64,000 bases of DNA, from NCBI GenBank assembly GCA_964516325.1, contig CAZFAP010000001.1:2221-66220 (forward strand), read 5' to 3'. The stretch is from an uncultured Verrucomicrobiota bacterium (GTDB lineage Bacteria; Auribacterota; JABMQX01). Below, piece after piece: positions 23,221 to 39,438 of the stretch. Both the position numbers and the translations under genes were made by a program. The first letter of the stretch is position 1; each line of letters opens with the position of its first letter. The notes under the pieces are model-generated. The model was not told the origin of the DNA. It did no database searches and was given only the letters and a program-made list of their open reading frames with translations.

Positions 23221-23243
23221 ATTATTGATAACGATTGCTAATA
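23221..23243 (+). promoter_or_regulatory. Candidate Fur/PerR box (autoregulatory operator) immediately upstream of the Fur-family gene
   Basis: ATTATTGATAACGATTGCTAATA is AT-rich and partly dyad-symmetric; it resembles GATAATGATAATCATTATC-type boxes. It is the only AT-rich patch in a GC-rich intergenic region. Confidence 0.3.
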
Positions 23244-23698
23244 TGAGAAAGCAAGTTGCGAAGAAGAATTATCGGATGACGCGCCAGCGGCAGATCATCC
23301 TCGAAGAGCTCAAGAAGGTCAAAACGCATCCGACGGCCGATGAGCTTTACGAAAGGGTTCGGAGGCGGCTGCCGCGGATTAGCCTGGGCACCGTGTACCG
23401 GAACCTCGATGTTCTCAGCCAGTTCGGCGCGATACAGAGACTCGATCTCGCGGGCGTGCAGCGGCGATTCGATGGAGAACCGGAAGCCCATTATCATGTG
23501 CGCTGCATCACGTGCGGGCGAGTGGACGATGTGTCGTTCGAGCCAATGCCGGGGCTTGAGCGCGGGCTCCGCGATTTGTGCGGTTACAAGGTCGTCGGAC
23601 ACAGACTGGAATTCATCGGCTTGTGTCCGAAGTGCCAGAAACGGAGAAGGCTCTCTCATTCGATAGGCGTCAAAACCGGATTTGCCCCCGGGGCATGA
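23243..23698 (+). CDS. Fur-family metalloregulator, probably a peroxide-responsive repressor (PerR-like)
   Basis: Fur-fold DNA-binding helix (TRQRQIILEEL), HxH metal-site residues and two CxxC pairs (CITCG, CPKC). It heads an island of rbr/sor/dfx/ferritin genes. Confidence 0.8.
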   Translation: MRKQVAKKNYRMTRQRQIILEELKKVKTHPTADELYERVRRRLPRISLGTVYRNLDVLSQFGAIQRLDLAGVQRRFDGEPEAHYHVRCITCGRVDDVSFEPMPGLERGLRDLCGYKVVGHRLEFIGLCPKCQKRRRLSHSIGVKTGFAPGA

Positions 23699-24108
23699 TG
23701 CGGCGCGGCGCCGCGCTCACTTCAATTCTTGCCTTATTGGTAGGAAAGCGAAGCGACGGTTGATCCAGATGGAGAGTGCCGAATCAAGGGATGTTTCCTG
23801 CGCCTTGGGCAGGGAACGACTATTCAGGTGCTGGCGAGTGGACCCATGGACATTCATGGTCCCCTGACGCGGGGCCCTTGGAAAATCGTTAAGTGTCCGG
23901 CAACGGCTGATCTTCCTCGGAACCAAAGATTGACTTTGGAGGTTTACAAAGTAAACATAAATTCTCCTGAGGAGTCGGGGGGTGAAACTTCATTGCTCAC
24001 CGTTCTTGACGCTAACTTGAGCAGGCCGTCGGGGTTGTCACAGTCCGAGGCGGTTTGCCAATGCAGTCCCGAACGGTGGAATGTGTCTTTCCGAAAGGAG
24101 GGAATACC

Positions 24109-24504
24109 ATGGCGGATTTGAGCGAGCGAATTCAAAAGGCGGACTGGAAAAAAGAGAAGCACGTGCCGGTCATCGAGGCGCCGGACCAGGTGAAGGCGGA
24201 TGAGCTTTTCGAGGTCAAGGTAACGCTTGGCAAGGAGATCGCTCATCCCAACACCACAGAACATCATATTCGCTGGATTTCTGTTTTCTTCCATCCCGAA
24301 GGGGGGAAGTTTAGCTTTGAGGTAGGCCACTTTGAATTTTCAGCGCACGGCGAGTCGGTTGACGGCCCGAACAAGGGACCCGTTTACACGCACCACGAAG
24401 TCAAAGCGTCATTAAAGATCAACAAGCCGGGAAGCCTGCACGCCCTTGCCTTGTGCAATATCCACGGGCTTTGGGAGTCGAGCAAGACAATCGCGGTGAG
24501 TTAG
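24109..24504 (+). CDS. Superoxide reductase, class II (neelaredoxin-type 1Fe-SOR)
   Basis: KHVPVIE, H-x5-H, CNIHGLW and the E...K motif; 131 aa from ATG 24109 with an AAAGGAGGG RBS. Confidence 0.85.
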   Translation: MADLSERIQKADWKKEKHVPVIEAPDQVKADELFEVKVTLGKEIAHPNTTEHHIRWISVFFHPEGGKFSFEVGHFEFSAHGESVDGPNKGPVYTHHEVKASLKINKPGSLHALALCNIHGLWESSKTIAVS

Positions 24505-24743
24505 CGGGGGTGTAATCGCCACGCTTTGCGCGTGCGAAGCCGCTTCCCTCGCCGTCGGCAGTCGTGGCATGGTGCAATTTCCCAATCGGCGGCTTTGCGA
24601 ACGTGACGTTCTGTCTGAGCCGACCCCGTGCTCTTGTTGAACGCGGATTGGTCTTGTCGGGAGGCGATGCTCCCTGATGTCGAGACGAATCCGGCGCCGA
24701 AAAGGATTTGCCAAAGTTTTGCTTCTGGAAAGGAGGTGCGGAG

Positions 24744-25106
24744 ATGCCTGAATTCCTGAATCCATTTAGTGGAGTGGTTCCCGGGCGCAAGCTCACTGTT
24801 CGCGAGCTGACACGGGCGATTCGCCTTGCCCTTTCTGCCGAGGAAGAGGCCGTCCATCTCTACGAGGCGCTTGCCGACGCCGCCGACAATGAACTGGCGA
24901 AGGCGGTCCTTCAGGACATAGCGGATGAGGAACGAGTCCATGCGGGAGAGTTCCAGCGCGTTCTGAAGATTCTCCTGCCTGACGAAGAGAAGTGGCTCGC
25001 GGACGGCGCCGCGGAGGTGGACGACATCGCCGAGAAGGTCAAAAAGGGCGAGCCTTCCTCGCCAGAGGGCAAGAAGGTCCCCACAGTCGGCGACATGAAA
25101 GAGTAG
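24744..25106 (+). CDS. Encapsulated ferritin-like protein (EncFtn-like cargo) with a putative C-terminal targeting peptide
   Basis: About 120 aa; paired ExxH diiron motifs (EEEAVHLYE, DEERVHAGEF); flexible Gly/Pro/Ser tail ending PTVGDMKE; lies immediately upstream of the encapsulin shell gene. Confidence 0.6.
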   Translation: MPEFLNPFSGVVPGRKLTVRELTRAIRLALSAEEEAVHLYEALADAADNELAKAVLQDIADEERVHAGEFQRVLKILLPDEEKWLADGAAEVDDIAEKVKKGEPSSPEGKKVPTVGDMKE

Positions 25107-25196
25107 GTCCATTTTATTTAGGAGGGGCTTGGGAGAATCAGCGAGGCTAAGATTGCAAAGCCTCCGAAAGAGAAAATTGAATCAGGAGGATACGCA

Positions 25197-26009
25197 ATGT
25201 CTGAGAAATTTCTGCATCGCGGAGATGCTCCGTTCGACGAAAAAGTCTGGGGAAAAATTGATGAAGCGGTTGTGGGCGCCGCGAAAAGCCAGTTGTCCGC
25301 TCGGCGAGTCTTGCACGTCGAGGGCCCCTATGGACTCGGACTGAAATCTATCCCCGGTCCGGAGTCGGAAGTAGGGGAGACCGCCGTTGAAGGCGCGACC
25401 GTGACGGCGAGTCTCGCCGTTCCGGTCGTTGGCATTCAAAGCTCGTTTCGCCTGTCCGCACGAGACATCGCGGCATTTGAGGAAACGGGCCTCCCCTTCG
25501 ATCTGCGGGGCGCGGTCGCCGCAGCGATCGCCTGCGCAAAACAAGAGGATGCCCTCCTCTTTCACGGTTCCAAGGCGCTCGGTGTCCAGGGATTGCTTAC
25601 CGCTAAGGGAACGCAGCAGCGGAAGCTCAAGCCGTGGACGGAAGTCGGCGTCGCCGTGGATGAGCTCATTCAGACGGTCAACGTTCTCGACGGCGTCGGA
25701 TTTCATGGGCCCTATTCGCTGGCTCTGGCGCCATCGCTCTACAATCTCTTGTTCCGACGGTATCCCCAGGGCGACAAGACCGAGATCGAGCACCTGCGAC
25801 TGCTGGCGACCGACGGCATAGTCAAGGCCCCCGCGATCAAGTCTGGCGGCGTGCTGTTGGCCTCCGGCCGGCAGTTCGCAGCAATTGTCCTGGGACAGGA
25901 CATCCTGACGTCCTTCGTGGGTCCCGCCGGTCGGGATTATGAGCTCTTAGTTTCGGAGAGTGTCGCGCTTCGGTTGGTCGAGCCGGCGGCGGTGTGCGTC
26001 CTGAAGTAG
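25197..26009 (+). CDS. Family-1 encapsulin shell protein (HK97 fold, linocin-M18-like)
   Basis: 270 aa. Clear homology to the T. maritima encapsulin: FLHRGDAPFDEKVWGKIDE...RRVLHVEGPYG, GPYSLAL, VLGQD...SF. Confidence 0.85.
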   Translation: MSEKFLHRGDAPFDEKVWGKIDEAVVGAAKSQLSARRVLHVEGPYGLGLKSIPGPESEVGETAVEGATVTASLAVPVVGIQSSFRLSARDIAAFEETGLPFDLRGAVAAAIACAKQEDALLFHGSKALGVQGLLTAKGTQQRKLKPWTEVGVAVDELIQTVNVLDGVGFHGPYSLALAPSLYNLLFRRYPQGDKTEIEHLRLLATDGIVKAPAIKSGGVLLASGRQFAAIVLGQDILTSFVGPAGRDYELLVSESVALRLVEPAAVCVLK

Positions 26010-26242: not shown

Positions 26243-26815
26243 ATGGGACTCAGAGGGTCGAAAACCGAGAAGAACGTCCTGACCGCGTTTGCGGGGGAAT
26301 CCCAGGCGAGAAATCGCTATACCTTCTTCGCCAGCCAGGCGAGGAAGGAAGGGTTCGTGCAGATCGCCGACATATTTGAGGAGACCGCCAATCAGGAAAA
26401 GGAGCACGCCAAGCGGTTCTTCCAACTCCTCCAGGGCGGTGACGTGGAGATTACAGCCGCGTTCCCTGCGGGCATCATAGGGACGACCGCCGAGAACCTC
26501 CGAGCGGCTGCCGCAGGCGAGGGACACGAGTGGGGGCAATTGTACCCGTCCTTCGCAAGCGTCGCGCGGCAGGAGGGCTTCGAGGAAATTGCCAGGATGT
26601 TCGATGCCATCGCCGTCGCTGAAAAGCAGCATCAGAAACGGTACCTCGGGCTGCTCGCGAACGTGGAGGCGGGCGTCGTCTTCAAGAAAAAGAGAAGCGT
26701 CGTCTGGCGATGCAGAAACTGCGGCTATGTCCACGAAGGCGCCGAGGCGCCCGAACAATGTCCAGCGTGTGCCCATCCCCAGGCGTTTTTTGAACTGTTG
26801 TGCGAGAACTGGTGA
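26243..26815 (+). CDS. rbr: Rubrerythrin (diiron four-helix bundle plus a C-terminal rubredoxin-like domain)
   Basis: ExxH diiron motifs and a C-terminal CRNCGY...CPAC FeCys4 site. Confidence 0.9.
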   Translation: MGLRGSKTEKNVLTAFAGESQARNRYTFFASQARKEGFVQIADIFEETANQEKEHAKRFFQLLQGGDVEITAAFPAGIIGTTAENLRAAAAGEGHEWGQLYPSFASVARQEGFEEIARMFDAIAVAEKQHQKRYLGLLANVEAGVVFKKKRSVVWRCRNCGYVHEGAEAPEQCPACAHPQAFFELLCENW

Positions 26816-26890
26816 GTCCCTCTTGCTTCGAGGCTCGCGGGGTTCGGTCTTGTGGCTTTGGTCGAACAACCGTAGCACGGGGAGGAAACG

Positions 26891-27346
26891 ATGAGTAAGT
26901 TCAGCTCCGCAGACGAAATTTTGGATTTCGCCGTCGCCAGGGAGGAGGAATCCGTTCGATTCTACTCCGCCTTGGCGGCTAAGGTGCAGAAGCCCCCTAT
27001 GCGAGAAGTCTTCAACGATTTCTCGCGCGAAGAAGAGGGGCACAAAGCAAGACTTCAGGCCATCAAACGTGAGAAGGTCCTGGTGCCCGCAACAGAGAAA
27101 ATTCAGGACCTCAAGGTCGCGGACTACCTGGTTGATGTCCAGCCCGCGACGGATATGGAATATCAGGACGCACTGATCCTGGCGATGAATAAGGAGAAAT
27201 CCTCGTTCCGGCTCTATATGGACCTCGCGGCGAGGACCGACAATCAGAGACTCCGGTCAACCTTACTCGCCCTCGCACAGGAAGAGGCGAAGCATAAGTT
27301 GCGGTTCGAGGTCGAGTACGACGACCACATCCTGAAACAGGATTGA
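26891..27346 (+). CDS. Ferritin-like / rubrerythrin-family diiron protein (no rubredoxin domain)
   Basis: REEESVRFY and EEEGHKARL are ExxH-type motifs; 151 aa; RBS GGGAGGAAACG. Confidence 0.7.
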   Translation: MSKFSSADEILDFAVAREEESVRFYSALAAKVQKPPMREVFNDFSREEEGHKARLQAIKREKVLVPATEKIQDLKVADYLVDVQPATDMEYQDALILAMNKEKSSFRLYMDLAARTDNQRLRSTLLALAQEEAKHKLRFEVEYDDHILKQD

Positions 27347-27421: not shown

Positions 27422-27511
27422 ATGATTTACAGGTACCTCCTCGGCGCCATCATTGGCGCCGCTATTGGCGGAATCGTTGGGCACCTCGGAAAATCCGCCG
27501 GCAGCACCTGA
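27422..27511 (+). CDS. Putative 29-aa glycine-zipper membrane peptide
   Basis: MIYRYLLGAIIGAAIGGIVGHLGKSAGST; 3 nt downstream a second glycine-zipper opens the next gene. A small peptide without a domain hit. Confidence 0.3.
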   Translation: MIYRYLLGAIIGAAIGGIVGHLGKSAGST

Positions 27512-27514: not shown

Positions 27515-27955
27515 ATGTCCGGCAGCCCCACGGGTGGGGTTCTCATTGGAGCTGTCATCGGAATTCTCATAGCGTCGGGTTTGGGCAGCCCGCGAGAAGA
27601 CCAGCCCCCGTCGCGGTACTTGACGGAACTCAAAACGGAAAACGACCTCAGTCAGGTGCTGGCAAGCAACGAGGTGGTCGTAGTGGACTTCTACTCAGAC
27701 CGTTCTCTGCCGAGCAAGAAGCTCAGACCGACCATCAACGAGCTTGCGGCGCAATACGCTGGCAGGGTTGCTGTCGTTGCGGTCAACCTCGGCAGATTTC
27801 CAGGTCTGCGAAGTCAGTACAACATCGCAGACGTTCCCGAAGTGAGGATATTCAAGGCGGGTAAGCTTGAGAGGAGCATCTCCCGGTCAAAACCGAAAAG
27901 GGTTTACGAGGAGGCGCTCGATAGCTTGTTGCCCGCGCGGACCGAAGCGAAATAG
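27515..27955 (+). CDS. Thioredoxin-fold protein with an N-terminal glycine-zipper TM helix, lacking the CxxC active site
   Basis: VVVDFYSDRS...VAVNLG...VPEVRIF follows the thioredoxin beta-alpha-beta order but contains no cysteine. Confidence 0.55.
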   Translation: MSGSPTGGVLIGAVIGILIASGLGSPREDQPPSRYLTELKTENDLSQVLASNEVVVVDFYSDRSLPSKKLRPTINELAAQYAGRVAVVAVNLGRFPGLRSQYNIADVPEVRIFKAGKLERSISRSKPKRVYEEALDSLLPARTEAK

Positions 27956-28002: not shown

Positions 28003-28821
28003 ATGAAGGGGTTCAGAAGCGCGATTTCCGGGTTCATTCTCGTCGTCACTGCGGTCGGGCACGTCCTGGCCAACGAGGGGCACGCGCACGCCGTCTCCTG
28101 GGGTAGCCTCGTCGTGCCATTCGGGATCGCAACCCTTTCGCTGGCGGTCCTAACCGCCTTGCTCGGACTGCTAATGCCGAAGAACCGCAAGCTCTTGTTC
28201 AAGTGGCACAGGCGGTTCGCCGTGGCGACCCTCGTCGCAGGTGTCTGTCATGCGACGCTCGTCCTCCTGTTCCACGAGGAAGGAGAGGTTCAAAAGGAGG
28301 AACCTATGAAAGAGCGAAAAGATGTCGTGACCATGAAAGGCAATCCGTTGACCTTGCTTGGGGATGAGATAAAAGAAGGCGACGCGGCCCCCGATTTCGT
28401 CGTGATTGACAACAGCCTATCTCCGGTGAAGTTCTCATCGTTCCGCGGCAAAGTGTGCATCATCGCGTCCGTTCCTTCTCTCGACACGTCGGTCTGCGAT
28501 CTCGAAACGCGAAAATTCAACGAAGAGGCTGGGCGGCTGGGACCGGACGTGGTGATCCTGACAATAAGCATGGACCTGCCATTCGCCCAGAAACGTTGGT
28601 GCGGAGCAGCCGGTGTGACGAGGGTCCAGACCTTTTCCGACCACCGCGACGCTTCCTTCGGCAAAGCGTACGGCGTCCTCATCAAGGAGCTGCGGTTGTT
28701 GACGAGGGCGGTCTTCGTCGTGGACCGGCAGGGCACAATCCGCTACGTCGAACCGGTCAGTGAGATGACCAAAGAGCCGGACTACGAGGCTGCTCTGCAA
28801 GCCGTGCGCCTGTTACTCTGA
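28003..28821 (+). CDS. tpx: Thiol peroxidase (Tpx, atypical 2-Cys peroxiredoxin) fused in frame to a ~100-aa N-terminal 3-TM His-rich segment. An internal SD+ATG at 28306 would give a canonical soluble Tpx.
   Basis: The Tpx core is DFVVIDNSLSPVKFSSFRGKVCIIASVPSLDTSVCDLETRKF. Both 28003 and 28306 are preceded by AAGGAG(G) RBS sequences. Confidence 0.8.
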   Translation: MKGFRSAISGFILVVTAVGHVLANEGHAHAVSWGSLVVPFGIATLSLAVLTALLGLLMPKNRKLLFKWHRRFAVATLVAGVCHATLVLLFHEEGEVQKEEPMKERKDVVTMKGNPLTLLGDEIKEGDAAPDFVVIDNSLSPVKFSSFRGKVCIIASVPSLDTSVCDLETRKFNEEAGRLGPDVVILTISMDLPFAQKRWCGAAGVTRVQTFSDHRDASFGKAYGVLIKELRLLTRAVFVVDRQGTIRYVEPVSEMTKEPDYEAALQAVRLLL

Positions 28822-28864
28822 CGACACGCCTGCCGCGGATTCGCCGCGAAAAGGAGCTTGGACC

Positions 28865-30379
28865 ATGAGAAATCTCCTTCTCACGTTGGCTTTTCTCGCA
28901 ATCGTCAGGGTATGCGCCGCCGACGAAAGCCTCCCAACCGCCGACGCTCCCGTCAGCAAAGAAACGAAAAGCTGCCTCGTCTGCCACAATTCCGTCAGCC
29001 CCGGAATTGTTGCCGATTGGAGGAAGAGCCTTCATTCCATGACCAGCCCGAGCGAAGCTCTCAAGAAGGAGCGTCTCCAGAGGAGGATTTCCGTTGAGAA
29101 GGTGCCGGAAAACCTGGCTGGCGTCGTCGTGGGGTGCGCCGAGTGTCACAATTTGCATCCCGAAAACCATAAAGATACATTCGAGCACGGCGGCTACAAA
29201 ACGCACGTGGTGGTGACTCCCGCCGACTGCGCGACCTGTCATCCAACGGAGGCAGATCAGTTTCGGGACAATTTGATGTCCCACGCGCACCTCAACCTTC
29301 GCAATAATTCCCTTTATCACGAGCTAAGCGATTCGATTAACGGCATTCATTCCTTCCGGGGGATGGTGACGGCCGTCGCGGCGCCCGATCCCGAAACCAG
29401 CCACGATTCCTGCTTCTATTGCCACGGGACCGCCGTGGAGGTCAGGGGCATCCATACGAGGGAGACCGCTCTCGGCGAAATGGAGTTTCCGACCCTGTCC
29501 GCCTGGCCGAATCAGGGTGTGGGGCGGTTAAATCCCGACGGAACCATGGGCTCTTGTGCTGCCTGTCACACCCGGCACCGCTTCTCCGTCGAGATGGCGA
29601 GAAAGCCCTATACGTGCGCCGAGTGCCACGAGGGACCGGACGTGCCCGCATACAAAGTCTACATGGTGAGCAAACACGGCAATCTCTTCTCTTCCCAGGG
29701 CGACGAATGGAACTTCGACGCGGTCCCGTGGGTTATAGGAGAGAACTTCACCGCTCCGACCTGTGCGGCGTGCCACGCCAGCCTTGTCGTGAGCGAGAGC
29801 GGCGAGGTTGTGGCACAGCGGACGCATCGCATGAATGATCGTCTCCCGTGGAGGATTTTCGGTTTGATTTACGCGCACCCTCATCCCAAATCCCCTGATA
29901 CCACCATCGTCAAGAACAAAGCAGGCTTGCCGCTGCCAACCGAACTCACCGGCGAGCCGGTCGCCGAGTTCCTCATAGATGCGAACGAGCAAGAAAAGAG
30001 GCTTGAGGCGATGCAAAACGTCTGCCTCGCGTGCCACGCCAAGGGGTGGGTGACAGGACAATTCGCACGCTTCGAGAACACCATTAAGACCACCAATCAG
30101 ATGACCCTCACCGCGACGCAAATACTGAAGACAGCCTGGGAAAAGGGCGCCGCGAAATGCGCAGCGCAGAACGATAGCATCTTCAATGAATCCATCGAGA
30201 AAAAGTGGGTTGAGCAGTGGCTCTTTTTTGCCAACTCGACGCGTTTTGCCTCCGCCATGATGGGCGCCGATTACGGCGTATTCGCCAACGGACGCTGGTA
30301 TCTGAGCAGGAATATTCAAGACATGGCGGATTGGCTTGCGCTCAAGCTTGAGACAATTCAAGGCGAGAAGAGACAGTGA
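28865..30379 (+). CDS. Secreted octaheme c-type cytochrome (HAO/ONR-like multiheme family)
   Basis: Signal peptide plus 8 CxxCH motifs: CLVCH, CAECH, CATCH, CFYCH, CAACH, CAECH, CAACH, CLACH. Confidence 0.85.
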   Translation: MRNLLLTLAFLAIVRVCAADESLPTADAPVSKETKSCLVCHNSVSPGIVADWRKSLHSMTSPSEALKKERLQRRISVEKVPENLAGVVVGCAECHNLHPENHKDTFEHGGYKTHVVVTPADCATCHPTEADQFRDNLMSHAHLNLRNNSLYHELSDSINGIHSFRGMVTAVAAPDPETSHDSCFYCHGTAVEVRGIHTRETALGEMEFPTLSAWPNQGVGRLNPDGTMGSCAACHTRHRFSVEMARKPYTCAECHEGPDVPAYKVYMVSKHGNLFSSQGDEWNFDAVPWVIGENFTAPTCAACHASLVVSESGEVVAQRTHRMNDRLPWRIFGLIYAHPHPKSPDTTIVKNKAGLPLPTELTGEPVAEFLIDANEQEKRLEAMQNVCLACHAKGWVTGQFARFENTIKTTNQMTLTATQILKTAWEKGAAKCAAQNDSIFNESIEKKWVEQWLFFANSTRFASAMMGADYGVFANGRWYLSRNIQDMADWLALKLETIQGEKRQ

Positions 30380-30468: not shown

Positions 30469-30843
30469 ATGGCGCAGAGATTCCAGATTTACAAGTGCGA
30501 GATTTGTGGCAATATTGTGGAGGTCCTCCACGAGGGCAAAGGAGAGCTGGTCTGCTGCGACCAGCCCATGAAGCTTTTCGTCGAGAATACGGTGGATGCC
30601 TCCCGCGAAAAGCATGTCCCCGTCATCGAAAAGACGGATCGCGGTGTGAAGGTCAAGGTCGGCAGTCTTCCTCACCCGATGGAGCCAAAGCACTACATCG
30701 AGTGGATTGAGGTGATTGCCGACGGAAAAGTCTATCGCCAGTTCCTTAAGCCCGGAGACGCGCCTGAAGCCGCTTTTGTAATTCAGGCAACGCAGATCAC
30801 GGCAAGAGAGTACTGTAACATTCACGGTCTATGGAGGGGGTGA
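30469..30843 (+). CDS. dfx: Desulfoferrodoxin (class I 2Fe superoxide reductase)
   Basis: N-terminal desulforedoxin CEICGN...CC, then KHVPVIE...H...H...CNIHGLW. Confidence 0.9.
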
Positions 30844-30848
30844 CTACC

Positions 30849-31346
30849 ATGATTAACGAGAGAATTGAAAAGGCGTTTAACGAGCAGATCAAGAACGAAC
30901 TGGAATCCGCCTACATCTACCTGTCCATGGCGGCCTATTTCCACTCGCAAAACCTCGACGGAATGGCGCAGTGGATGCGCGTTCAGGCGAAAGAGGAAGT
31001 GGGGCATGCCATGAAGTTCTTCGACCACATCCGAGACCGCCAGGGGCGGGTCACCTTGTTGCCGCTTACCCCGCTGAAGACTGACTGGTCTTCGCCTCTG
31101 GAAGCTTTTCAGGACGCTTATGAACACGAGCAGTTCATCACCGGGAAGATCAATGAACTTGTCAAACTTGCCGACGACGAGAGCGACCCGCCCGCCAGCG
31201 TGCTCCTCCAGTGGTTCGTGAACGAGCAGGTCGAGGAGGAAGCGAACACCTCCAAGACCGTCCAGACGCTGGAGCTCGTGGGCGATTCCGGCCCTGGGTT
31301 GATCATGCTCGATCGGGAACTCGGCAAGAGGGAGTTCTCAGGTTAA
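30849..31346 (+). CDS. Non-haem bacterial ferritin
   Basis: The ferroxidase-centre pattern E...Y...EExGH...E...QxxE is readable in the sequence (ELESAYIYLSMAAYF, KEEVGHAMKF, VNEQVEEE). Confidence 0.85.
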   Translation: MINERIEKAFNEQIKNELESAYIYLSMAAYFHSQNLDGMAQWMRVQAKEEVGHAMKFFDHIRDRQGRVTLLPLTPLKTDWSSPLEAFQDAYEHEQFITGKINELVKLADDESDPPASVLLQWFVNEQVEEEANTSKTVQTLELVGDSGPGLIMLDRELGKREFSG

Positions 31347-31357
31347 CAGGAGTGAAT

Positions 31358-31849
31358 ATGAGCATCCATTTCAATGCAGACGAAATCTTCGAAATGGCCG
31401 AGCAGATCGAGAGGAACGGCGCCAACTTCTACCGCAAAGTCGCTGGAACGGCGGACGAAGCGGAAGTCCGGCGTGTCCTCCTCGATCTCGCCGCCATGGA
31501 AGACGAGCACGAGAAGACTTTCGCCGCCATGCGGGCGCAGTTGTCCGCGGAACAGCGCATCTCCATCACATTCGACCCCGAAGGGGAGGCGGCGATGTAC
31601 CTCCAAGCGATGGCGGATGGATATGTCTTTGACGTGCGCACCGACCCTTCCGAGCTTTTGACCGGAGAGGAGGGTCTCGCGGACATTCTCCACACCGCCA
31701 TCGGGCTTGAGAAAGACTCCATCGTCTTTTACCTCGGTATCCGAGATTTGGTCCCGGAGAAGTTCGGCAAGGGGAAGATCAATGACATAATCAAGGAAGA
31801 AATGGGGCACATCACCACCTTGAGCCAGAAGCTGGCCTCGCTGAATTGA
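31358..31849 (+). CDS. Rubrerythrin-family ferritin-like diiron protein
   Basis: Paired E-x2-H helices (AAMEDEHEKTF, IKEEMGHITTL); 163 aa; the track ORF 31211.. is over-extended. Confidence 0.65.
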   Translation: MSIHFNADEIFEMAEQIERNGANFYRKVAGTADEAEVRRVLLDLAAMEDEHEKTFAAMRAQLSAEQRISITFDPEGEAAMYLQAMADGYVFDVRTDPSELLTGEEGLADILHTAIGLEKDSIVFYLGIRDLVPEKFGKGKINDIIKEEMGHITTLSQKLASLN

Positions 31850-31907: not shown

Positions 31908-32630
31908 ATGGAAGCATTATCTCGTCGCGACGTGTTTAGACTGCTTGGCGCCTCCGCCGCATGGGCGTCCGCGATCAGTTTCTCGGAGAGGTCCGCGAAA
32001 GCCGAAACATCGGAAGCTCTCAGCATCGCGCCCTACAAGCTCCCCGATCTGCCCTATCCGGTTGACGCTCTCGAACCGCACCTCGACGCACACACGTTGA
32101 CCATCCATCACGACAAGCATCACGCTGCCTACGTGCAGGGCTTGAATGCAGCGCTCGTCGGATTGCAGGAGGCTCGAAAGAAAGGAGACTTTGCGGCAGT
32201 CCAGGCTCTATCCGGTGCGCTCGCGTTCCACGGGTCCGGGCACCTGCTGCACACGCTCCACTTCGCCAACCTTCACCCGAAGCCAGCCAGGCCGGCGGGC
32301 GCCTTGTCGGGCGCGATCGAGGCGCAGTTTGGCAGCCTCGATGCCTTCATCGCGCACCTTGTCGCCGCCGCGAATACCGTTGCGGGCAGCGGCTGGGGGA
32401 TTCTCGCTTACGAACCTGTCGGGCGACGCCTGCTGGTGCTTCAGGTTGAGAAGCATGAGAACCAGCTCGTGTGCGGCGCCATTCCTTTGCTCGTGATTGA
32501 TGTCTGGGAGCATGCCTATTACCTGAGCTATCAGAACCGGCGAGCGGATTATGTGAAGGCCATCATGAACGTCATTCACTGGGACGAAGTTGCCCGTCGG
32601 TTCGACGAGGCGAGGCGCATTCACGGCTGA
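31908..32630 (+). CDS. Fe/Mn superoxide dismutase with a Tat signal peptide
   Basis: SRRDVFRLLGASAAWASA Tat motif; SOD motifs HHDKHH and DVWEHAYY. Confidence 0.9.
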   Translation: MEALSRRDVFRLLGASAAWASAISFSERSAKAETSEALSIAPYKLPDLPYPVDALEPHLDAHTLTIHHDKHHAAYVQGLNAALVGLQEARKKGDFAAVQALSGALAFHGSGHLLHTLHFANLHPKPARPAGALSGAIEAQFGSLDAFIAHLVAAANTVAGSGWGILAYEPVGRRLLVLQVEKHENQLVCGAIPLLVIDVWEHAYYLSYQNRRADYVKAIMNVIHWDEVARRFDEARRIHG

Positions 32631-32721: not shown

Positions 32722-34398
32722 ATGGCAAGTAAAACGTTCAACATCCTTGTGGGCGGAGAAGCCGGTCAGGGGCTGGTCACCGTCGGGGAATTGCTGACCC
32801 GGTGCCTCGTCCGCTCCGGTTATTTCGTCGTTGTCACTCAGACCTATCAATCGCGCATTCGCGGCGGGCACAATACGTTCGCCGTCCGTGTCAGCACAGA
32901 CCCAATCGTCGCTCCTCAAGAGCCCGTTGATCTCCTCGTCGCGCTGAATGCAGAGACCGTGAAGCTCCATCGAGAGGAACTGGTCCCCGACGGGCTGACC
33001 ATTGTTGACGAAGCCTTCGGCCTCACGGATGACTCCTGCCTGAAGGTTCCGTTCAAAGAGCTCTCCACCCGGAGGTCCACGAACATTGTGGCGCTTGCCG
33101 TCGTTGCGTCTTCGGTGGGACTCGACGAAAACCTCCTCTCCCGCACGATGGAGGAGTACTTCGGGAAGAAGGACCCCAAAGCCGCAGAAGAGAACCAGCA
33201 GGCGTTGAGGAGTTCGTTTCAGTGGTGCGCGGGTCGCCCAGCGAGGGTCAGCAAGCTGCCGTCCGTTCAAAATCCTCCAAAGCGCCTGATGATGAATGGA
33301 AATGAGGCGATTGCCTTGGGCGCCCTTTCCGCCGGGCTGAGGTTCTATTCCTTCTATCCCATGACTCCCTCCACCTCCATCGGGCAGTATCTTGCCGGAC
33401 AAGCAAAGCGGCTGGGCTTGATTGTCGAGCAGGGGGAGGATGAGATTGCCGTCATCAACATGGCGTTGGGCGCCTCCTTCGCCGGCGCCCCGAGCATGGT
33501 TTCGACCTCTGGCGGCGGATTTGCGTTGATGGTCGAGGGGGTCAGTCTTGCGGGAATGACCGAGACGCCCGTCGTAATTGTCGTTGGGCAGCGCCCCGCC
33601 CCAGCAACCGGACTCCCGACCCGCACGGAGCAGGCGGACCTCGAGTTCGTCCTCCACGCCGGACACGGCGAATTTCCGCGGGCGATCTTCTCTCCGGGTA
33701 CCGTCGAGGAGTGTTTCTATCTGACGCGTAAGGCGTTTGACCTCGCCGAGCGGTATCAGAGTCCAGTCTTCATCTTGACAGACCAATTCCTCGCCGATTC
33801 CTATCGTGCGGTCGCGCCCTTCGACTTGAAGGACCTCTCGCCCGTTCGTCCCGGAGTAGGGGAGGACGCGATTTCGCGCCCGTACAGAAGGCACGCGTTC
33901 ACGGAAAGCGGCGTCTCACCTCGCCTCCTTCCCGGTTTGACAGCACACCTTGTCGTCACCGACAGCGACGAGCACACCGAAGACGGGCACATAACGGAAG
34001 ACCTTTCCGTCCGGCGGCGGATGGTCCAAAAAAGGTTGAGAAAGCTGGAAGGAATTCGTCAGGACGTTACTCCGCCCGAGTTCCGTGGCGACGAGAATCC
34101 TGAACTCTTGCTCGTTTCATGGGGGAGCACAAAAGGCGCGGTCTGCGAAGCAGCTTCTCTCCTGAGGTTGCAGGGGCGTCGGGTTGTGGTGCTCCATTTT
34201 TCGCAGGTCTGGCCCATGGTCACCGACCAGGTCGTCCCGATTTTGGAAAAGGCTGGGGAGGTCGCCTGCGTGGAAGGAAATGCCACCGGTCAACTCGTAC
34301 GCTTGATCCGCCGTGAGACCGGTTTTGCCATCGAGAGGCGAATCCTCCGGTGCGACGGTTTGCCCTTCACGCCGGAATCAATCGTTCGTGAGCTGTAA
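32722..34398 (+). CDS. korA: 2-oxoacid:ferredoxin oxidoreductase, fused gamma/alpha subunit (two-subunit OFOR type)
   Basis: N-terminal gamma-like domain (ILVGGEAGQG) followed by an alpha domain (GNEAIALGALSAG...YPMTPST); 558 aa from ATG 32722. Confidence 0.85.
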   Translation: MASKTFNILVGGEAGQGLVTVGELLTRCLVRSGYFVVVTQTYQSRIRGGHNTFAVRVSTDPIVAPQEPVDLLVALNAETVKLHREELVPDGLTIVDEAFGLTDDSCLKVPFKELSTRRSTNIVALAVVASSVGLDENLLSRTMEEYFGKKDPKAAEENQQALRSSFQWCAGRPARVSKLPSVQNPPKRLMMNGNEAIALGALSAGLRFYSFYPMTPSTSIGQYLAGQAKRLGLIVEQGEDEIAVINMALGASFAGAPSMVSTSGGGFALMVEGVSLAGMTETPVVIVVGQRPAPATGLPTRTEQADLEFVLHAGHGEFPRAIFSPGTVEECFYLTRKAFDLAERYQSPVFILTDQFLADSYRAVAPFDLKDLSPVRPGVGEDAISRPYRRHAFTESGVSPRLLPGLTAHLVVTDSDEHTEDGHITEDLSVRRRMVQKRLRKLEGIRQDVTPPEFRGDENPELLLVSWGSTKGAVCEAASLLRLQGRRVVVLHFSQVWPMVTDQVVPILEKAGEVACVEGNATGQLVRLIRRETGFAIERRILRCDGLPFTPESIVREL

Positions 34399-34415
34399 CT
34401 CAAGACGAGGGCAAA

Positions 34416-35267
34416 ATGGTAACCATTGATGACTACGGAAAATATGAAACGGCGTGGTGTCCCGGCTGTGGAAACTTCGGTATTCTGAGAGCCGTCAAGC
34501 AGGCGCTCCTTGCCAGCGGGATCGAGCCACACCAGGTTCTTTTCGTCTCCGGCATCGGGCAGGCGGCAAAGGCCCCGCATTACCTGAATGCCAATCTTTT
34601 CAACGGTCTTCACGGGCGCTCCCTCCCGGTGGCGACGGGCGCCAAGCTCGCCAATCCCCGGCTCGTCGTCATCGTCGAAAGCGGCGATGGCTGCACCTAT
34701 GGCGAAGGCGGAAACCACTTCTTAGCCGCGATTCGCCGAAACATTGACCTTACGCTCCTCGTTCACAACAACCAGGTCTATGGCTTGACGAAAGGGCAGG
34801 CGAGCCCCACTTCGGAGGTCGGCTTCGTTACCAAGGCTCAGCCGGAGGGCGTCTTCGCCCAGCCCTTCAACCCGGTCGCAGTGGCCGTCGCTATGCACGC
34901 CGGATTTGTCGCGCGGAGCTTCGCCGGAATGCTCGACCATTTGGCGAAGATGATCCAGCAGGCAATTGCCCACCGGGGCCTCTCTCTTGTTGACATACTT
35001 CAACCATGTCCTTCGTTCAACAAGGTGAACACGTGGGAATGGTATCAGCGGCGGTGTTACGTTTTGCCGGAGGATCACGACCCCACGAGTTGGGAAGCCG
35101 CCATGAAGGTCGCCTATGAGTGGGGCGACCGCATCCCCGTCGGGATTATTTATCGAAACAATAGACCGCCGTTCGAGGAGAACTCTTCCGTTTTGCGTCA
35201 GGGACCGCTCGTTGGGCGAGACCTCGATAAGGAAGCGATGTCTGCGACTCTGGAGCGATTTGCCTGA
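34416..35267 (+). CDS. korB: 2-oxoacid:ferredoxin oxidoreductase beta subunit (TPP-binding)
   Basis: WCPGCGNFGIL, GDGCTYGEGGNH TPP motif. Confidence 0.9.
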   Translation: MVTIDDYGKYETAWCPGCGNFGILRAVKQALLASGIEPHQVLFVSGIGQAAKAPHYLNANLFNGLHGRSLPVATGAKLANPRLVVIVESGDGCTYGEGGNHFLAAIRRNIDLTLLVHNNQVYGLTKGQASPTSEVGFVTKAQPEGVFAQPFNPVAVAVAMHAGFVARSFAGMLDHLAKMIQQAIAHRGLSLVDILQPCPSFNKVNTWEWYQRRCYVLPEDHDPTSWEAAMKVAYEWGDRIPVGIIYRNNRPPFEENSSVLRQGPLVGRDLDKEAMSATLERFA

Positions 35268-38229: not shown

Positions 38230-39438
38230 ATGAGCGGACCATTTAAAGCAACCCAGGTGACAGAGAACATTTTTTGGGTGGGCGCCATTGACTGGGCCCT
38301 GCGAAATTTCCACGGCTACGCCACCAGCCGCGGCACGACCTACAACGCCTACCTCATCCTCGCCGACAAAATCACCTTGGTTGATACGGTCAAGGCGCCC
38401 TTCAAGGATGAAATGCTTTCCCGAATCGCCTCGGTCATTGATCCTGCGAAGGTTGACTACATCATCTCGAATCACTCGGAGATGGACCATTCGGGATGCC
38501 TCCCAGAGGTCATCGAGCGAATTAAGCCTCAAAAAGTCCTCGCTTCCGAGAACGGCGTCAAGGCTCTTCGAGAGCATTTCCACACTTCCCATGACATCGT
38601 CGCGGTCAGGGACGGCGAGAGCCTCAGCCTCGGGAACATGACCCTCTCCTTCATGGAGACCCGGATGCTCCACTGGCCCGATAGCATGTTCACCTATGTT
38701 GCGGAGCAGCAGTTCCTCTTCTCGCAGGATGCCTTTGGCATGCACCTCGCCAGCACCGAAAGATTTGACGATGAGCTTGACAGCCAGGCCCTCGAATACG
38801 AAGCCGCCAAATACTACGCCAACATCCTCCTGCCGTTTTCCTCCTTCGTCACGAGGCTTTTGGAGAAGCTTGGGAAGCTCGGTATCCCAATCAGGACGAT
38901 GGCGCCGGACCATGGCCCCATCTGGCGCAAAGACGTTAACAAAATAGTCGAGCTTTATTCCCGCTGGGCTGCTCAGAAGCCCACCATGAAGGCCGTCATC
39001 ACCTACGACACCATGTGGCAGAGCACCGCCCTCATGGCGCGGGCGATATGCGACGGACTGGTATCCGGCGGGGTCAGCGTCAAAGTCATGCCCCTCGATG
39101 CCTGCCACCGCAGCGATGTCGCCACGGAAGTCTTCGACGCCGGCGCTCTCCTGGTCGGCTCACCCACCATGAACAACACGATCTTCCCGACGGTCGCGGA
39201 CGTTATGACGTATCTCAGGGGTCTGAAGCCCCGGAACAAAATCGGTGCGGTCTTCGGCTCCTACGGCTGGAGCGGCGAAGCGGTGAAGCAACTGGGAAAT
39301 ATGCTCGCCGAGATGAAGATCGAGCTGGTCGGCGAACCGATCAACGCGAAATACGTGCCCGATGGCGAAACCCTCGCCAGGTGCTTTGCTCTCGGCGCCC
39401 TCGTCGCCGAAAAGCTCAGGGGGAAATGCGGCCCCTGA
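38230..39438 (+). CDS. Flavodiiron protein (FprA / rubredoxin:oxygen oxidoreductase type O2/NO reductase)
   Basis: Metallo-beta-lactamase-like diiron domain (HSEMDHSG) followed by a flavodoxin domain (VFGSYGWSGEA). Confidence 0.9.
   Translation: MSGPFKATQVTENIFWVGAIDWALRNFHGYATSRGTTYNAYLILADKITLVDTVKAPFKDEMLSRIASVIDPAKVDYIISNHSEMDHSGCLPEVIERIKPQKVLASENGVKALREHFHTSHDIVAVRDGESLSLGNMTLSFMETRMLHWPDSMFTYVAEQQFLFSQDAFGMHLASTERFDDELDSQALEYEAAKYYANILLPFSSFVTRLLEKLGKLGIPIRTMAPDHGPIWRKDVNKIVELYSRWAAQKPTMKAVITYDTMWQSTALMARAICDGLVSGGVSVKVMPLDACHRSDVATEVFDAGALLVGSPTMNNTIFPTVADVMTYLRGLKPRNKIGAVFGSYGWSGEAVKQLGNMLAEMKIELVGEPINAKYVPDGETLARCFALGALVAEKLRGKCGP

What the first reader, a model, noticed from the sequence alone, without database searches (positions are those of the whole stretch)
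28865..30379. HAO/ONR-like octaheme cytochrome c embedded among ROS-defence genes
Eight CxxCH motifs in ~500 aa with a signal peptide indicate a periplasmic octaheme cytochrome of the hydroxylamine oxidoreductase / octaheme nitrite reductase type. It sits between tpx and dfx, which suggests a detoxifying reductase for nitrite, hydroxylamine or NO rather than a respiratory module. Such a role is poorly characterised outside Campylobacterota.
Basis: partly seen in the sequence, partly recalled or inferred. Interest (0 to 1): 0.55.

Follow-up and report, generated by a model that had tools for sequence, protein, structure and literature searches.

The report
Octaheme cytochrome in oxygen-stress island
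This gene encodes an exported eight-heme cytochrome of the hydroxylamine-oxidoreductase family (the IhOCC type), and in most related anaerobes sampled it sits among oxygen-stress defence genes, so many environmental 'hao' genes may serve stress defence rather than nitrogen cycling.

Summary
ORF 28865-30379 (+) encodes a 504-aa protein with a hydrophobic N-terminal leader and exactly eight CxxCH motifs; residue shuffles give a mean of 0.03.

It belongs to the HAO family, specifically the IhOCC clade (PDB 4QO5, E=3e-116, all eight motifs aligned). It is not ONR, OTR, NrfB or MtrA. There is no CxxCK motif. The residue aligned with the HAO cross-linking tyrosine is Phe473, as in IhOCC, which predicts reductive rather than oxidative chemistry.

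The context is not a local accident:
- Of 69 homologous loci from several phyla with at least 3 kb of flank, 50 carry Dfx/SOR, rubrerythrin, Tpx, flavodiiron protein, ferritin or a PerR-like gene within 5 kb.
- That rises to 58 of 69 when thiol-redox genes are included.
- None of the 69 carries a neighbour with two or more heme motifs, so no NapC/NrfH/HaoB-type partner.
- As a control, 0 of 80 loci around nitrifier-type HAO genes contain such stress genes.

Best reading: a periplasmic detoxifying reductase that forms part of an anaerobe's PerR-type oxidative-stress and Fe-S-repair island. The substrate is unresolved: nitrite, hydroxylamine or NO (by homology), or H2O2 or O2 (by context).

The protein is a new member of a known kind. 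I found no paper in the held library describing the conserved linkage.

The parts
28865..30379 (+). Gene for the IhOCC-type (HAO-family) octaheme cytochrome c, 504 aa
   Evidence: ORF; PF13447 1.3e-20; 4qo5_A E=3e-116 by sequence and 9.7e-164 with the family profile; 60-74% identical homologues in 80 GTDB species genomes.
28851..28856 (+). Shine-Dalgarno AAGGAG, 8 nt before the ATG
   Evidence: Read directly from the sequence.
28865..28921 (+). Putative Sec signal peptide (residues 1 to about 19, MRNLLLTLAFLAIVRVCAA), or possibly an uncleaved anchor
   Evidence: Hydrophobic N-terminus with a small-residue VCA/CAA site. N-termini are hydrophobic across the family alignment. No dedicated predictor was run, so this is an inference.
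28973..28987 (+). Heme 1 motif CLVCH (residues 37-41)
   Evidence: aligned with the IhOCC motif CLSCH.
29135..29149 (+). Heme 2 motif CAECH (residues 91-95)
   Evidence: repeat D4; aligned with IhOCC.
29228..29242 (+). Heme 3 motif CATCH (residues 122-126)
29411..29425 (+). Heme 4 motif CFYCH (residues 183-187), the presumed five-coordinate catalytic heme by homology to HAO and IhOCC
   Evidence: The catalytic assignment follows Soares 2022 and is an inference for this protein.
29555..29569 (+). Heme 5 motif CAACH (residues 231-235), in the CHTRHxFS block conserved across the HAO family
29615..29629 (+). Heme 6 motif CAECH (residues 251-255)
29639..29644 (+). Asp259-Val260, aligned with the Asp267-His268 pair of Nitrosomonas HAO (GVDHNNW versus GPDVPAY)
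   Evidence: Alignments. D259 and V260 are invariant in 78 of 78 homologues. IhOCC has DPDVPAF.
29762..29776 (+). Heme 7 motif CAACH (residues 300-304)
30023..30037 (+). Heme 8 motif CLACH (residues 387-391), followed by three long C-terminal helices
   Evidence: AF2 secondary structure gives helices 393-426, 443-464 and 470-503.
30281..30283 (+). Phe473, the residue aligned with the heme-cross-linking Tyr467 of Nitrosomonas HAO
   Evidence: Gapless motif alignment AMMGADYGVFANG versus AHVNPGGWTYTEG (NeHAO) and AHMSMYNQTYGNG (Kuenenia HOX). hhalign and a MAFFT alignment with bridging families give the same result. Phe in 73 of 78 homologues and in IhOCC.
23225..23698 (+). Fur-family regulator at the head of the island; its best matches are PerR models
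   Evidence: PF01475 2.1e-29. NCBIfam PerR models 5.6e-33 and 4.1e-28, both below their cut-offs. A sigma-70-like promoter lies at 23197-23225. Homologues head the cluster in at least 9 loci.
24055..24504 (+). One-iron superoxide reductase (neelaredoxin type); the likely true start is the ATG at 24109
   Evidence: PF01880 5.8e-34; TIGR00332 1.8e-32.
24708..26009 (+). Encapsulated ferritin-like cargo (24708-25106) and family 1 encapsulin shell (25197-26009)
   Evidence: NCBIfam EncB_fam 2.3e-30 and encap_f1 5.6e-67, both above cut-off; PF04454.
26243..27346 (+). Rubrerythrin (26243-26815) and a rubrerythrin/ferritin-like protein (26891-27346)
   Evidence: PF02915 and PF21349.
27515..27955 (+). 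Thioredoxin-fold protein with a hydrophobic N-terminal segment and no cysteine
   Evidence: PF00085 6.1e-13. The sequence has no Cys. The L001 orthologue keeps CPPC.
28003..28821 (+). Thiol peroxidase Tpx (domain from 28306, with its own AAGGAGG ribosome-binding site), preceded in frame by a roughly 100-aa His-rich hydrophobic module with about three predicted TM segments (28003-28305)
   Evidence: PRK00522 1.3e-61. RBS seen. The module is conserved in L002 (fused) and L001 (stand-alone). It has no Pfam match.
30469..30843 (+). Desulfoferrodoxin (two-iron superoxide reductase)
   Evidence: TIGR00320 9.2e-66, above cut-off.
30831..31849 (+). Ferritin (30831-31346) and a rubrerythrin-like protein (about 31358-31849)
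   Evidence: PF00210 1.8e-40 and PF02915.
31908..32630 (+). Fe/Mn superoxide dismutase with a twin-arginine leader (SRRDVF)
   Evidence: PF02777 and PF00081; N-terminus read.
32722..35267 (+). Two-subunit 2-oxoacid:ferredoxin oxidoreductase
   Evidence: PF01855 and PF01558. Homologues lie near the octaheme gene in 17-19 loci.
38230..39438 (+). Flavodiiron protein (O2 or NO reductase class), at the far end of the island
   Evidence: PF19583 and PF00258. PRK11921 3.8e-130, below its cut-off. Homologues lie within 5 kb of the octaheme gene in 24 of 69 loci.

Best explanation
The gene encodes an exported octaheme cytochrome c of the IhOCC clade of the hydroxylamine-oxidoreductase (HAO) family. By homology it should form a chain of seven bis-His electron-transfer hemes feeding one five-coordinate catalytic heme (heme 4). 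Phe473 replaces the tyrosine that cross-links this heme in oxidative HAOs, so the enzyme should work as a reductase. It is a fixed component of an oxidative-stress and Fe-S-repair island that appears to be PerR-regulated, and it has no dedicated quinol-dehydrogenase partner. The most likely role is therefore the periplasmic arm of an anaerobe's stress defence: it would take electrons from the general periplasmic pool (hydrogenase, formate dehydrogenase, cytochrome c3-type carriers) and reduce a small toxic oxidant before it reaches the cytoplasm. Shown here: family membership, absence of the cross-link tyrosine, absence of CxxCK, the conserved gene linkage, and the absence of a multiheme partner. 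Inferred: export, heme coordination, electron donor, PerR control, and the substrate. By homology to IhOCC the substrate would be nitrite, hydroxylamine or NO. By context it would be H2O2 or O2.
For: Family:
- 4qo5_A (IhOCC) matches at E=3e-116 by sequence and 9.7e-164 with the family profile, with all eight CxxCH motifs aligned.
- Every other PDB hit is HAO-clade: HAO, HOX, HDH and kustc0458.
- Soares 2022 places IhOCC with HAO/HDH in one clade and calls it a nitrite reductase without a P460 heme.

Reductive type:
- Tyr467 of NeHAO and the equivalent Tyr of Kuenenia HOX align with Phe473 by three methods.
- Absence of the cross-link predicts reduction (Ferousi 2021).

Context:
- In the window the gene sits in a same-strand run of PerR-like, SOR, encapsulin/EncFtn, Rbr, Trx-like, Tpx, OCT, Dfx, ferritin, Rbr-like, Tat-SOD, OFOR and FDP genes, with no convincing terminator between them.
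- Of 69 homologous loci with at least 3 kb of flank, 50 have a core ROS gene within 5 kb, and 58 when thiol-redox genes are included.
- None of the 69 has a neighbour with two or more heme motifs.
- Adjacent same-strand stress genes lie a median of 52.5 bp away (n=60).
- SufBD, SufC-like, NifU, cysteine desulfurase and TusA genes also recur.
- Control: 42 of 80 IhOCC-type loci against 0 of 80 nitrifier-HAO loci hold a homologue of a window ROS protein within 2.5 kb, with equal flank DNA.
- The linkage is seen in MAGs labelled Thermodesulfobacteriota, Verrucomicrobiota, Ignavibacteria, Zixibacteria, Aquificota and Planctomycetota.

Electron supply: Igni_0955 (IhOCC) was reported to be reduced by the native hydrogenase (Kletzin 2015).
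Against: - No experiment bears on this protein, and guilt by association does not identify a substrate.
- About a quarter of the homologous loci (19 of 69) show no core ROS gene within 5 kb, for example the two Nitrospirota loci L069 and L071.
- The only biochemistry on a relative (IhOCC) concerns nitrite and hydroxylamine, not ROS. I know those details from memory of Parey 2016, which is not in the held library.
- PerR control is inferred only from gene order and from below-threshold PerR model hits. I found no shared operator motif.
- My gene calls in the loci are heuristic, guided by conservation.
- The AF2 model was too poor to examine the active site (pLDDT 53.6).
Confidence: 0.7

Rival explanations
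1. It is a respiratory or assimilatory nitrite-to-ammonium (or nitrite-to-hydroxylamine) reductase, working like epsilon-Hao in the reverse-HURM pathway of Nautilia and other Campylobacterota.
For: It belongs to the same superfamily, and the cross-link tyrosine is absent, as in epsilon-Hao, which reduces nitrite and hydroxylamine in vitro (Ferousi 2021 citing Haase 2017). IhOCC is described as an octaheme nitrite reductase. Mat and sediment studies interpret such hao genes this way.
Against: None of 69 loci has a NapC/NrfH/HaoB-type or any other neighbour with two or more heme motifs. One further short locus, L016, has a 93-aa two-motif ORF. None of the recurrent neighbour families I annotated is a nitrate/nitrite reductase, transporter or hcp gene. 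The neighbours are ROS and Fe-S-repair genes instead.
Confidence: 0.12
2. It is mainly an electron carrier or electron store in the periplasm, for example a relay from hydrogenase to other periplasmic or membrane antioxidant enzymes, with no substrate of its own.
For: Igni_0955 is very abundant and is reduced by hydrogenase, and the authors discuss an electron-relay role. The window cluster holds several envelope-directed proteins that need reductant: Tpx preceded by a hydrophobic His-rich module, a thioredoxin-like protein with a hydrophobic N-terminus, and a Tat-SOD.
Against: The active-site region is strictly conserved: D259, V260, H238, R326, R330 and Y336 are invariant in 78 of 78 homologues. 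The catalytic-type heme 4 motif is kept, and IhOCC has catalytic activity. A plain carrier would not need this.
Confidence: 0.1
3. It is an oxidative hydroxylamine (or hydrazine) dehydrogenase like the HAO of nitrifiers or anammox bacteria, as many database labels ('hydroxylamine oxidase/dehydrogenase') say.
For: Source annotations of homologues use these names. PF13447 and the NCBIfam HDH model give partial hits.
Against: Phe473 occupies the cross-link position. The HDH equivalog scores 54.6 bits against a cut-off of 900. There are no c554, cM552 or haoB neighbours. The host carries strictly anaerobic enzymes such as a glycyl-radical HypD. Nitrifier HAO loci have a wholly different context.
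Confidence: 0.02
4. The placement among stress genes is a chance or lineage-specific juxtaposition with no functional meaning.
For: Nineteen of 69 loci lack core ROS neighbours. Islands can travel together by horizontal transfer.
Against: The linkage recurs with varied gene orders in MAGs from at least six phyla. Intergenic gaps are short. The control set of nitrifier-HAO loci shows none of it.
Confidence: 0.05

Closest known systems
IhOCC (Igni_0955) of Ignicoccus hospitalis, PDB 4QO5
   Same: Closest solved relative: E=3e-116, 41% identity over 512 aligned columns. All eight CxxCH motifs are aligned. The Asp-Val pair follows heme 6 in both. Phe occupies the cross-link position in both, and both have the three C-terminal helices. 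IhOCC is described as a nitrite-reducing octaheme without P460.
   Different: The host here is bacterial rather than crenarchaeal. The linker between heme 7 and heme 8 is about 35 residues shorter (87 versus about 122 residues). Tyr470 stands where IhOCC has Trp. The genomic context of Igni_0955 was not examined. The physiological role of IhOCC is itself unknown.
Hydroxylamine oxidoreductase of nitrifiers (NeHAO, 1FGJ/4FAS) and Kuenenia HOX and HDH (4N4J, 6HIF)
   Same: Same superfamily and the same eight-heme order. The CHTRHxFS and KHG blocks around hemes 5-6 are conserved (E=1e-18 to 1e-11).
   Different: The cross-link Tyr is replaced by Phe473. Asp-His becomes Asp-Val. Heme 4 to heme 5 spacing is 48 residues instead of 10, and heme 7 to heme 8 is 87 instead of 50. 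The gene context is entirely different.
Reductive HAOs: epsilon-Hao of Campylobacterota and HAOr (kustc0458, 6H5L)
   Same: They lack the tyrosine cross-link and act as reductases for nitrite and hydroxylamine. kustc0458 is the second-best PDB hit (3e-27 with the profile).
   Different: kustc0458 keeps Asp-His (GPDHPD) and works with a diheme partner, kustc0457. Epsilon-Hao is said to pair with a NapC/NrfH-type HaoB (my own knowledge). No such partner is present here. Sequence identity is low outside the heme 5-7 block.
Cytochrome c nitrite reductase NrfA as a stress enzyme
   Same: A periplasmic multiheme reductase with one open-coordination heme. NrfA detoxifies NO (Poock 2002, cited). From my own knowledge, in Wolinella it also protects against hydroxylamine and H2O2 (Kern 2011). 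This is a functional precedent for a multiheme reductase in stress defence.
   Different: NrfA is a pentaheme with a Lys-ligated CxxCK heme, and it depends on NrfH or NrfB. There was no significant sequence match.

Membership tests
HAO superfamily (octaheme cytochromes c, Pfam PF13447; clade 1 of Soares 2022) | Eight CxxCH motifs in the family's order, with significant similarity to solved members | tested here: met
   Eight motifs. PF13447 at 74.2 bits against a cut-off of 21.9. Eight PDB hits, all HAO-clade.
HAO superfamily (octaheme cytochromes c, Pfam PF13447; clade 1 of Soares 2022) | Three long C-terminal helices that form the trimer interface | tested here: inconclusive
   Helices 393-426, 443-464 and 470-503 are predicted, but the model is low-confidence. 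They align with the IhOCC C-terminus. Trimer formation cannot be tested with these tools.
IhOCC clade | Full-length, high-scoring similarity to 4QO5, with every heme motif aligned | tested here: met
   E=3e-116, or 9.7e-164 with the profile. Residues 30-344 and 369-492 are aligned. 4QO5 is the only significant Foldseek hit.
IhOCC clade | No tyrosine at the heme-4 cross-link position | tested here: met
   Phe473, with Phe also in IhOCC.
IhOCC clade | Nitrite and hydroxylamine reductase activity | not testable with these tools
   This needs an enzyme assay. Only the literature statement for IhOCC is available.
Oxidative HAO/HDH (P460 enzymes) | Tyrosine that cross-links the catalytic heme of the neighbouring subunit (Tyr467 in NeHAO) | tested here: not met
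   The aligned residue is Phe473 by three alignments. The nearby Tyr470 aligns with Gly in NeHAO, Asn in Kuenenia HOX and Trp in the cross-link-free IhOCC.
Oxidative HAO/HDH (P460 enzymes) | Equivalog-level score to HDH | tested here: not met
   NF052343 gives 54.6 bits against a cut-off of 900.
Octaheme nitrite reductase ONR, and NrfA | CxxCK motif giving a lysine-ligated catalytic heme | tested here: not met
   No CxxCK in this protein or in any of 78 homologues. The definition is from Ferousi 2021.
Octaheme nitrite reductase ONR, and NrfA | Sequence similarity to solved ONR or NrfA chains | tested here: not met
   No ONR or NrfA chain reaches E<=1 with the family profile.
Epsilon-Hao / reverse-HURM module | Adjacent gene for a NapC/NrfH-type tetraheme quinol dehydrogenase (HaoB) | tested here: not met
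   There is no neighbour with two or more heme motifs in the window or in 69 homologous loci.
OTR, MtrA and NrfB-type multiheme proteins | Significant similarity, or matching heme spacing | tested here: not met
   NrfB scores E=5.8. OTR and MtrA are not detected. The Pfam MtrC-domain hit is below its cut-off (27.5 against 30).
PerR regulon (peroxide-stress regulon of anaerobes) | Co-transcription with, or operator-dependent control by, PerR | tested here: inconclusive
   A PerR-like Fur gene heads the island here and in at least 9 other loci. Its model scores are below cut-off, and no shared operator was found. Expression data are needed.

The most novel reading that the evidence does not exclude
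IhOCC-type octaheme cytochromes are periplasmic H2O2 or O2 (ROS) reductases of a PerR-type oxidative-stress regulon in anaerobes. If so, the very abundant tyrosine-less 'hao' genes counted as nitrogen-cycle genes in anoxic sediments and microbial mats largely report oxygen defence, not hydroxylamine or nitrite metabolism.
Probability: 0.35. Interest if true: 0.75.

Novelty: new member of a known kind. Interest (0 to 1): 0.5.

Why it matters
Metagenomic surveys routinely score tyrosine-less hao genes as nitrification or 'reverse-HURM' genes. In one hypersaline mat they were among the two most abundant nitrogen-metabolism genes, and the authors could not explain why (PMC8940962). In Bothnian Sea sediment most hao-like reads came from Deltaproteobacteria and had no assignable function (PMC5552932).

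If this clade is really part of the oxygen-stress and Fe-S-repair island of anaerobes, those nitrogen-cycle inferences need revising. Anaerobes would also gain a previously unrecognised periplasmic defence enzyme, alongside the cytoplasmic SOR, rubrerythrin and flavodiiron system. The hypothesis can be tested directly in cultured sulfate reducers and syntrophs.

Tried and rejected
- **AlphaFold2 model.** Run on a 24-sequence alignment, it was poor (mean pLDDT 53.6, with residues 206-371 below 50). Foldseek against the PDB returned only 4QO5, at TM 0.35, which adds nothing beyond sequence. I did not use the model for active-site analysis.
- **NeHAO retrieval by homologue search.** A search with an 83-aa NeHAO fragment found only four short fragments and cost one capped search. 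The full NeHAO-like gene came from a metagenome scan instead.
- **Global hhalign.** Aligning the family against HAO globally misaligned the C-terminus. I replaced it with a local hhalign, a MAFFT alignment with bridging families, and a gapless motif comparison that includes Kuenenia HOX.
- **Tyr470 as a possible cross-link tyrosine.** I briefly suspected the conserved Tyr470 in the 'PDY' motif. I rejected this because the PDY-bearing bridging protein I checked (P0177) is closest to IhOCC, not to HDH, and because the two genuinely cross-linked enzymes share a T-Y-x-x-G motif that aligns three residues downstream.
- **Longest-ORF gene calling.** It picked antisense ORFs in this GC-rich DNA and was replaced by conservation-guided selection.
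- **Source record.** An exact-match look-up of the protein found no contig, and cluster look-up gave no names, so the window's organism is unidentified. The most similar locus with the same gene order is a Verrucomicrobiota MAG (L002).
- **PerR operator.** A search for a shared operator or palindrome in the island's intergenic regions gave nothing consistent.
- **Literature.** Five full-text searches for a link between HAO-like or IhOCC-type proteins and ROS-defence clusters found none. The primary IhOCC paper (Parey 2016) is not held.
Full report
**1. The observation**

ORF 28865-30379 on the + strand encodes 504 residues. An AAGGAG ribosome-binding site lies 8 nt upstream of the ATG. The protein carries eight CxxCH motifs, at residues 37, 91, 122, 183, 231, 251, 300 and 387. 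There is no CxxCK. Sixteen of its 18 cysteines lie in heme motifs. Shuffling the residues 2000 times gave a mean of 0.03 motifs and never more than 2.

The N-terminus (MRNLLLTLAFLAIVRVCAADE) looks like a Sec signal. This was read by eye; no dedicated predictor was available. GC content is the same as the surroundings.

**2. The family**

Pfam gives PF13447, the HAO-type multiheme family, at 1.3e-20. The NCBIfam hydrazine-dehydrogenase equivalog scores only 54.6 bits against a cut-off of 900.

Against all PDB sequences the best match by far is 4qo5_A (E=3e-116). HAO-clade chains follow at 1e-18 to 2e-11: kustc0458, Nitrosomonas HAO, Kuenenia HOX and HDH. NrfB appears only at E=5.8. A profile of 21 family members sharpens this. 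4QO5 rises to 9.7e-164, all eight hits at E<=1 are HAO-clade, and there is no ONR, OTR, NrfA or MtrA.

4QO5 is IhOCC (Igni_0955) of Ignicoccus hospitalis. Soares et al. 2022 place it with HAO and HDH in one clade, call it an octaheme nitrite reductase, and state that it lacks the P460 heme. All eight heme motifs of the window protein align with those of IhOCC. The only clear length difference is a linker before heme 8 that is about 35 residues shorter.

Compared with a Nitrosomonas-type HAO recovered from a metagenome (100% identical to the PDB fragment; motifs at mature residues 79, 145, 172, 229, 239, 259, 310 and 360), the spacing differs in two places. Heme 4 to heme 5 is 48 residues instead of 10, and heme 7 to heme 8 is 87 instead of 50.

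**3. The cross-link tyrosine and the active site**

Nitrosomonas HAO Tyr467 lies in the sequence AHVNPGGWTYTEG. The cross-linked Kuenenia HOX has AHMSMYNQTYGNG at the same place. The window has AMMGADYGVFANG and IhOCC has AMNGQDWTTFKRG. These align without gaps and place the tyrosine on Phe473.

A local profile-profile alignment (low confidence) and a MAFFT alignment that includes 27 bridging families give the same answer. Position 473 is Phe in 73 of 78 full-length homologues.

I briefly suspected the conserved Tyr470 and rejected it. It aligns with Trp in the cross-link-free IhOCC and with Gly in Nitrosomonas HAO and Asn in Kuenenia HOX. The PDY-bearing bridging protein I checked (P0177) is closest to IhOCC rather than to the oxidative enzymes.

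Absence of the cross-link is taken in the field to favour reductive catalysis (Ferousi 2021). The Asp-His pair after heme 6 in HAO (GVDHNNW) and kustc0458 (GPDHPD) is Asp259-Val260 here and in IhOCC. Both residues are invariant in 78 of 78 homologues. The pocket is therefore clade-specific and strongly constrained.

**4. The context in the window**

From 23.2 to 39.4 kb every called gene is on the + strand. In order, the genes are:
- a Fur-family regulator whose best matches are PerR models, though below their cut-offs;
- a one-iron superoxide reductase;
- an encapsulin with ferritin-like cargo;
- rubrerythrin and a rubrerythrin-like protein;
- a cysteine-less thioredoxin-like protein with a hydrophobic N-terminus;
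- Tpx, preceded in frame by a His-rich hydrophobic module with about three predicted TM segments;
- the octaheme cytochrome;
- desulfoferrodoxin, ferritin and another rubrerythrin-like protein;
- a Tat-exported Fe/Mn SOD;
- a 2-oxoacid:ferredoxin oxidoreductase;
- a ZIP transporter, a flavodoxin-fold reductase and an alcohol dehydrogenase;
- a flavodiiron protein.

No convincing terminator separates these genes. Elsewhere the window holds a glycyl-radical hydroxyproline dehydratase and radical-SAM enzymes, so the host is an anaerobe. I could not identify the organism.

**5. Whether the context is conserved**

The family is large: 3326 proteins at E<=1e-10 among the 8000 candidates scored. In a library clustered at 50% identity there are 163 representatives at E<=1e-30.

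I fetched 80 loci from species-representative genomes. They are 45-73% identical by their best segment, nearly all at 53% or more. They come from Thermodesulfobacteriota, Zixibacteria, Ignavibacteria, Verrucomicrobiota, Nitrospirota, Planctomycetota, Aquificota, Spirochaetota and an archaeon. I picked genes by cross-locus conservation, clustered them, and annotated representatives with Pfam.

The octaheme gene is repeatedly co-directional with:
- Dfx, SOR or rubrerythrin-like genes (35 of 69 loci with at least 3 kb of flank);
- flavodiiron protein (24);
- Tpx (17);
- a glutaredoxin and ferredoxin:thioredoxin-reductase pair (17 and 15);
- rubrerythrin (14);
- 2-oxoacid:ferredoxin oxidoreductase (17-19);
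- a PerR-like regulator (9);
- ferritins, an AhpC-like protein, an FMN reductase, a DUF255 thioredoxin and a hemerythrin-PAS protein;
- Fe-S assembly genes: SufC-like and SufBD, NifU, cysteine desulfurase and TusA.

Overall, 50 of 69 loci have a core ROS gene within 5 kb, and 58 of 69 when thiol-redox genes are included. None of the 69 has a neighbour with two or more heme motifs. Adjacent same-strand stress genes lie a median of 52.5 bp away (n=60).

As a control I ran tblastn with ten window stress proteins against 2.5-kb flanks. It hit 42 of 80 IhOCC-type loci and 0 of 80 loci around nitrifier-type HAO genes, with equal amounts of flank DNA. The association is therefore real and clade-specific. 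It spans several phyla with differing gene orders.

**6. The mechanism**

Shown:
- the protein is an IhOCC-clade octaheme;
- it has no cross-link tyrosine and no lysine-ligated heme;
- it has no dedicated quinol-dehydrogenase partner;
- it sits in a conserved stress-island context.

Inferred:
- the protein is exported;
- by homology, seven bis-His hemes carry electrons to a five-coordinate heme 4;
- electrons come from the general periplasmic pool (Igni_0955 was reported to be reduced by the native hydrogenase);
- the enzyme reduces a small toxic oxidant in the periplasm, which the cytoplasmic SOR, rubrerythrin and flavodiiron enzymes cannot reach.

The substrate is open. Homology points to nitrite, hydroxylamine or NO. 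The neighbours, which are almost all oxygen/ROS and Fe-S-repair genes and include no N-oxide genes, point to H2O2 or O2. NrfA gives a precedent for a multiheme reductase that serves in detoxification (plus my own knowledge of the Wolinella work). I put about 0.7 on a stress-defence role of either kind. Within that, I put roughly even odds on ROS against RNS as the main substrate.

**7. Rival explanations**

- A respiratory or assimilatory epsilon-Hao-like nitrite reductase is disfavoured by the lack of any HaoB/NrfH-type partner or N-cycle neighbour.
- A pure electron relay is disfavoured by the invariant active-site residues.
- An oxidative HAO is excluded by Phe473, the anaerobic host and the context.
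- Chance juxtaposition is excluded by the control.

**8. Comparison with the literature, and novelty**

What I did not find in the held literature is the conserved linkage of this clade to oxidative-stress islands. Five full-text searches returned nothing relevant. Environmental papers treat these genes as nitrogen-cycle genes of unclear function, although they are among the most abundant such genes in mats and sediments. One genome paper even assigns them hydroxylamine oxidation in a sulfate reducer. The library is incomplete, so priority cannot be claimed.

**9. Verdict**

The protein itself is ordinary for its family. The context-based hypothesis is moderately interesting and directly testable.

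Noticed in passing
L039, L044, L045 and L052 (octaheme genes; alignment position equivalent to window residue 473): Four of 78 homologues carry Tyr instead of Phe at the cross-link position. Three of them (two Zixibacteria MAGs, L039 and L045, plus L044, an unclassified MAG) have Thr before it (DYGTYANG), the same T-Y pair as in the cross-linked Nitrosomonas and Kuenenia enzymes. L052 has Val before it (DYGVYDNG). These variants might form a P460-type cofactor, yet L039 and L045 still sit in ROS-gene contexts.
   Followed up: partly
window 28003-28305 (+), in frame with tpx: A roughly 100-aa His-rich hydrophobic module with about three predicted TM segments (motifs AHG.E.H, KWH[KR]R and CHA[AT]LV) precedes Tpx with no stop codon between them, although Tpx has its own strong RBS at 28306. 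It is fused the same way in L002 and stands alone in L001. It has no Pfam match. It could be a heme-b-type membrane anchor or electron entry point.
   Followed up: partly
window 27515-27955 (+): A thioredoxin-fold protein with a hydrophobic N-terminal segment has lost both active-site cysteines (DFYSDRSLPSKKL) and contains no Cys at all. The L001 orthologue keeps CPPC, and the L002 orthologue has also lost it.
   Followed up: partly
window 27422-27511 (+): A small ORF encodes a 29-aa glycine-zipper-like hydrophobic peptide (MIYRYLLGAIIGAAIGGIVGHLGKSAGST). A similar sequence forms the N-terminal extension of Tpx in L004.
   Followed up: no
window 24708-26009 (+): A family 1 encapsulin shell gene with an EncB/encapsulated-ferritin-like cargo gene sits inside the stress island. 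This would be an iron-sequestering nanocompartment alongside two conventional ferritin-like genes.
   Followed up: partly
window 32722-35267 (+); also L002, L004, L006, L014, L019, L037 and others: A two-subunit 2-oxoacid:ferredoxin oxidoreductase recurs next to the octaheme gene and the ROS genes in 17-19 loci. This suggests a dedicated source of reduced ferredoxin, or an oxygen-tolerant isoenzyme, for the stress response.
   Followed up: partly
L042, L043, L053, L057, L062, L064, L065 and others: A recurring sub-arrangement is HEAT-repeat protein, then octaheme gene, then glutaredoxin, then ferredoxin:thioredoxin reductase catalytic subunit. The HEAT protein lies immediately next to the octaheme gene in 12 loci, and its role is unknown.
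   Followed up: no
L014, L019, L023, L058, L061 and L075: These loci carry two copies of the octaheme gene within about 8 kb, adjacent in L023. This indicates paralogue expansion in some Desulfobacterota, Zixibacteria and Ignavibacteria.
   Followed up: no
window 31908-32630 (+): The Fe/Mn superoxide dismutase has a twin-arginine leader (MEALSRRDVFRLLGASAAWASA), so it is predicted to be a periplasmic SOD. This is unusual for the Fe/Mn type and fits an envelope-directed subset of the island.
   Followed up: no
window 56899-63358 (-): A hydroxyproline utilisation cluster: trans-4-hydroxy-L-proline dehydratase (glycyl radical enzyme, 1306 bits, above cut-off), its radical-SAM activase (CPLRCPWC), an Xaa-Pro peptidase and a sodium:solute symporter. 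GC content falls to about 0.53 in this region.
   Followed up: partly
window 9833-15433 (-): A very large ORF (1866 aa) with a leader-like N-terminus. A LapB-repeat/OmpL47-type surface protein lies at 50009-52438. Neither was analysed further.
   Followed up: no
L016 (downstream of the octaheme gene): This is the only locus with a nearby ORF carrying two CxxCH motifs (93 aa, close to the contig end). It is too short a contig to judge whether it encodes a dedicated partner cytochrome.
   Followed up: no
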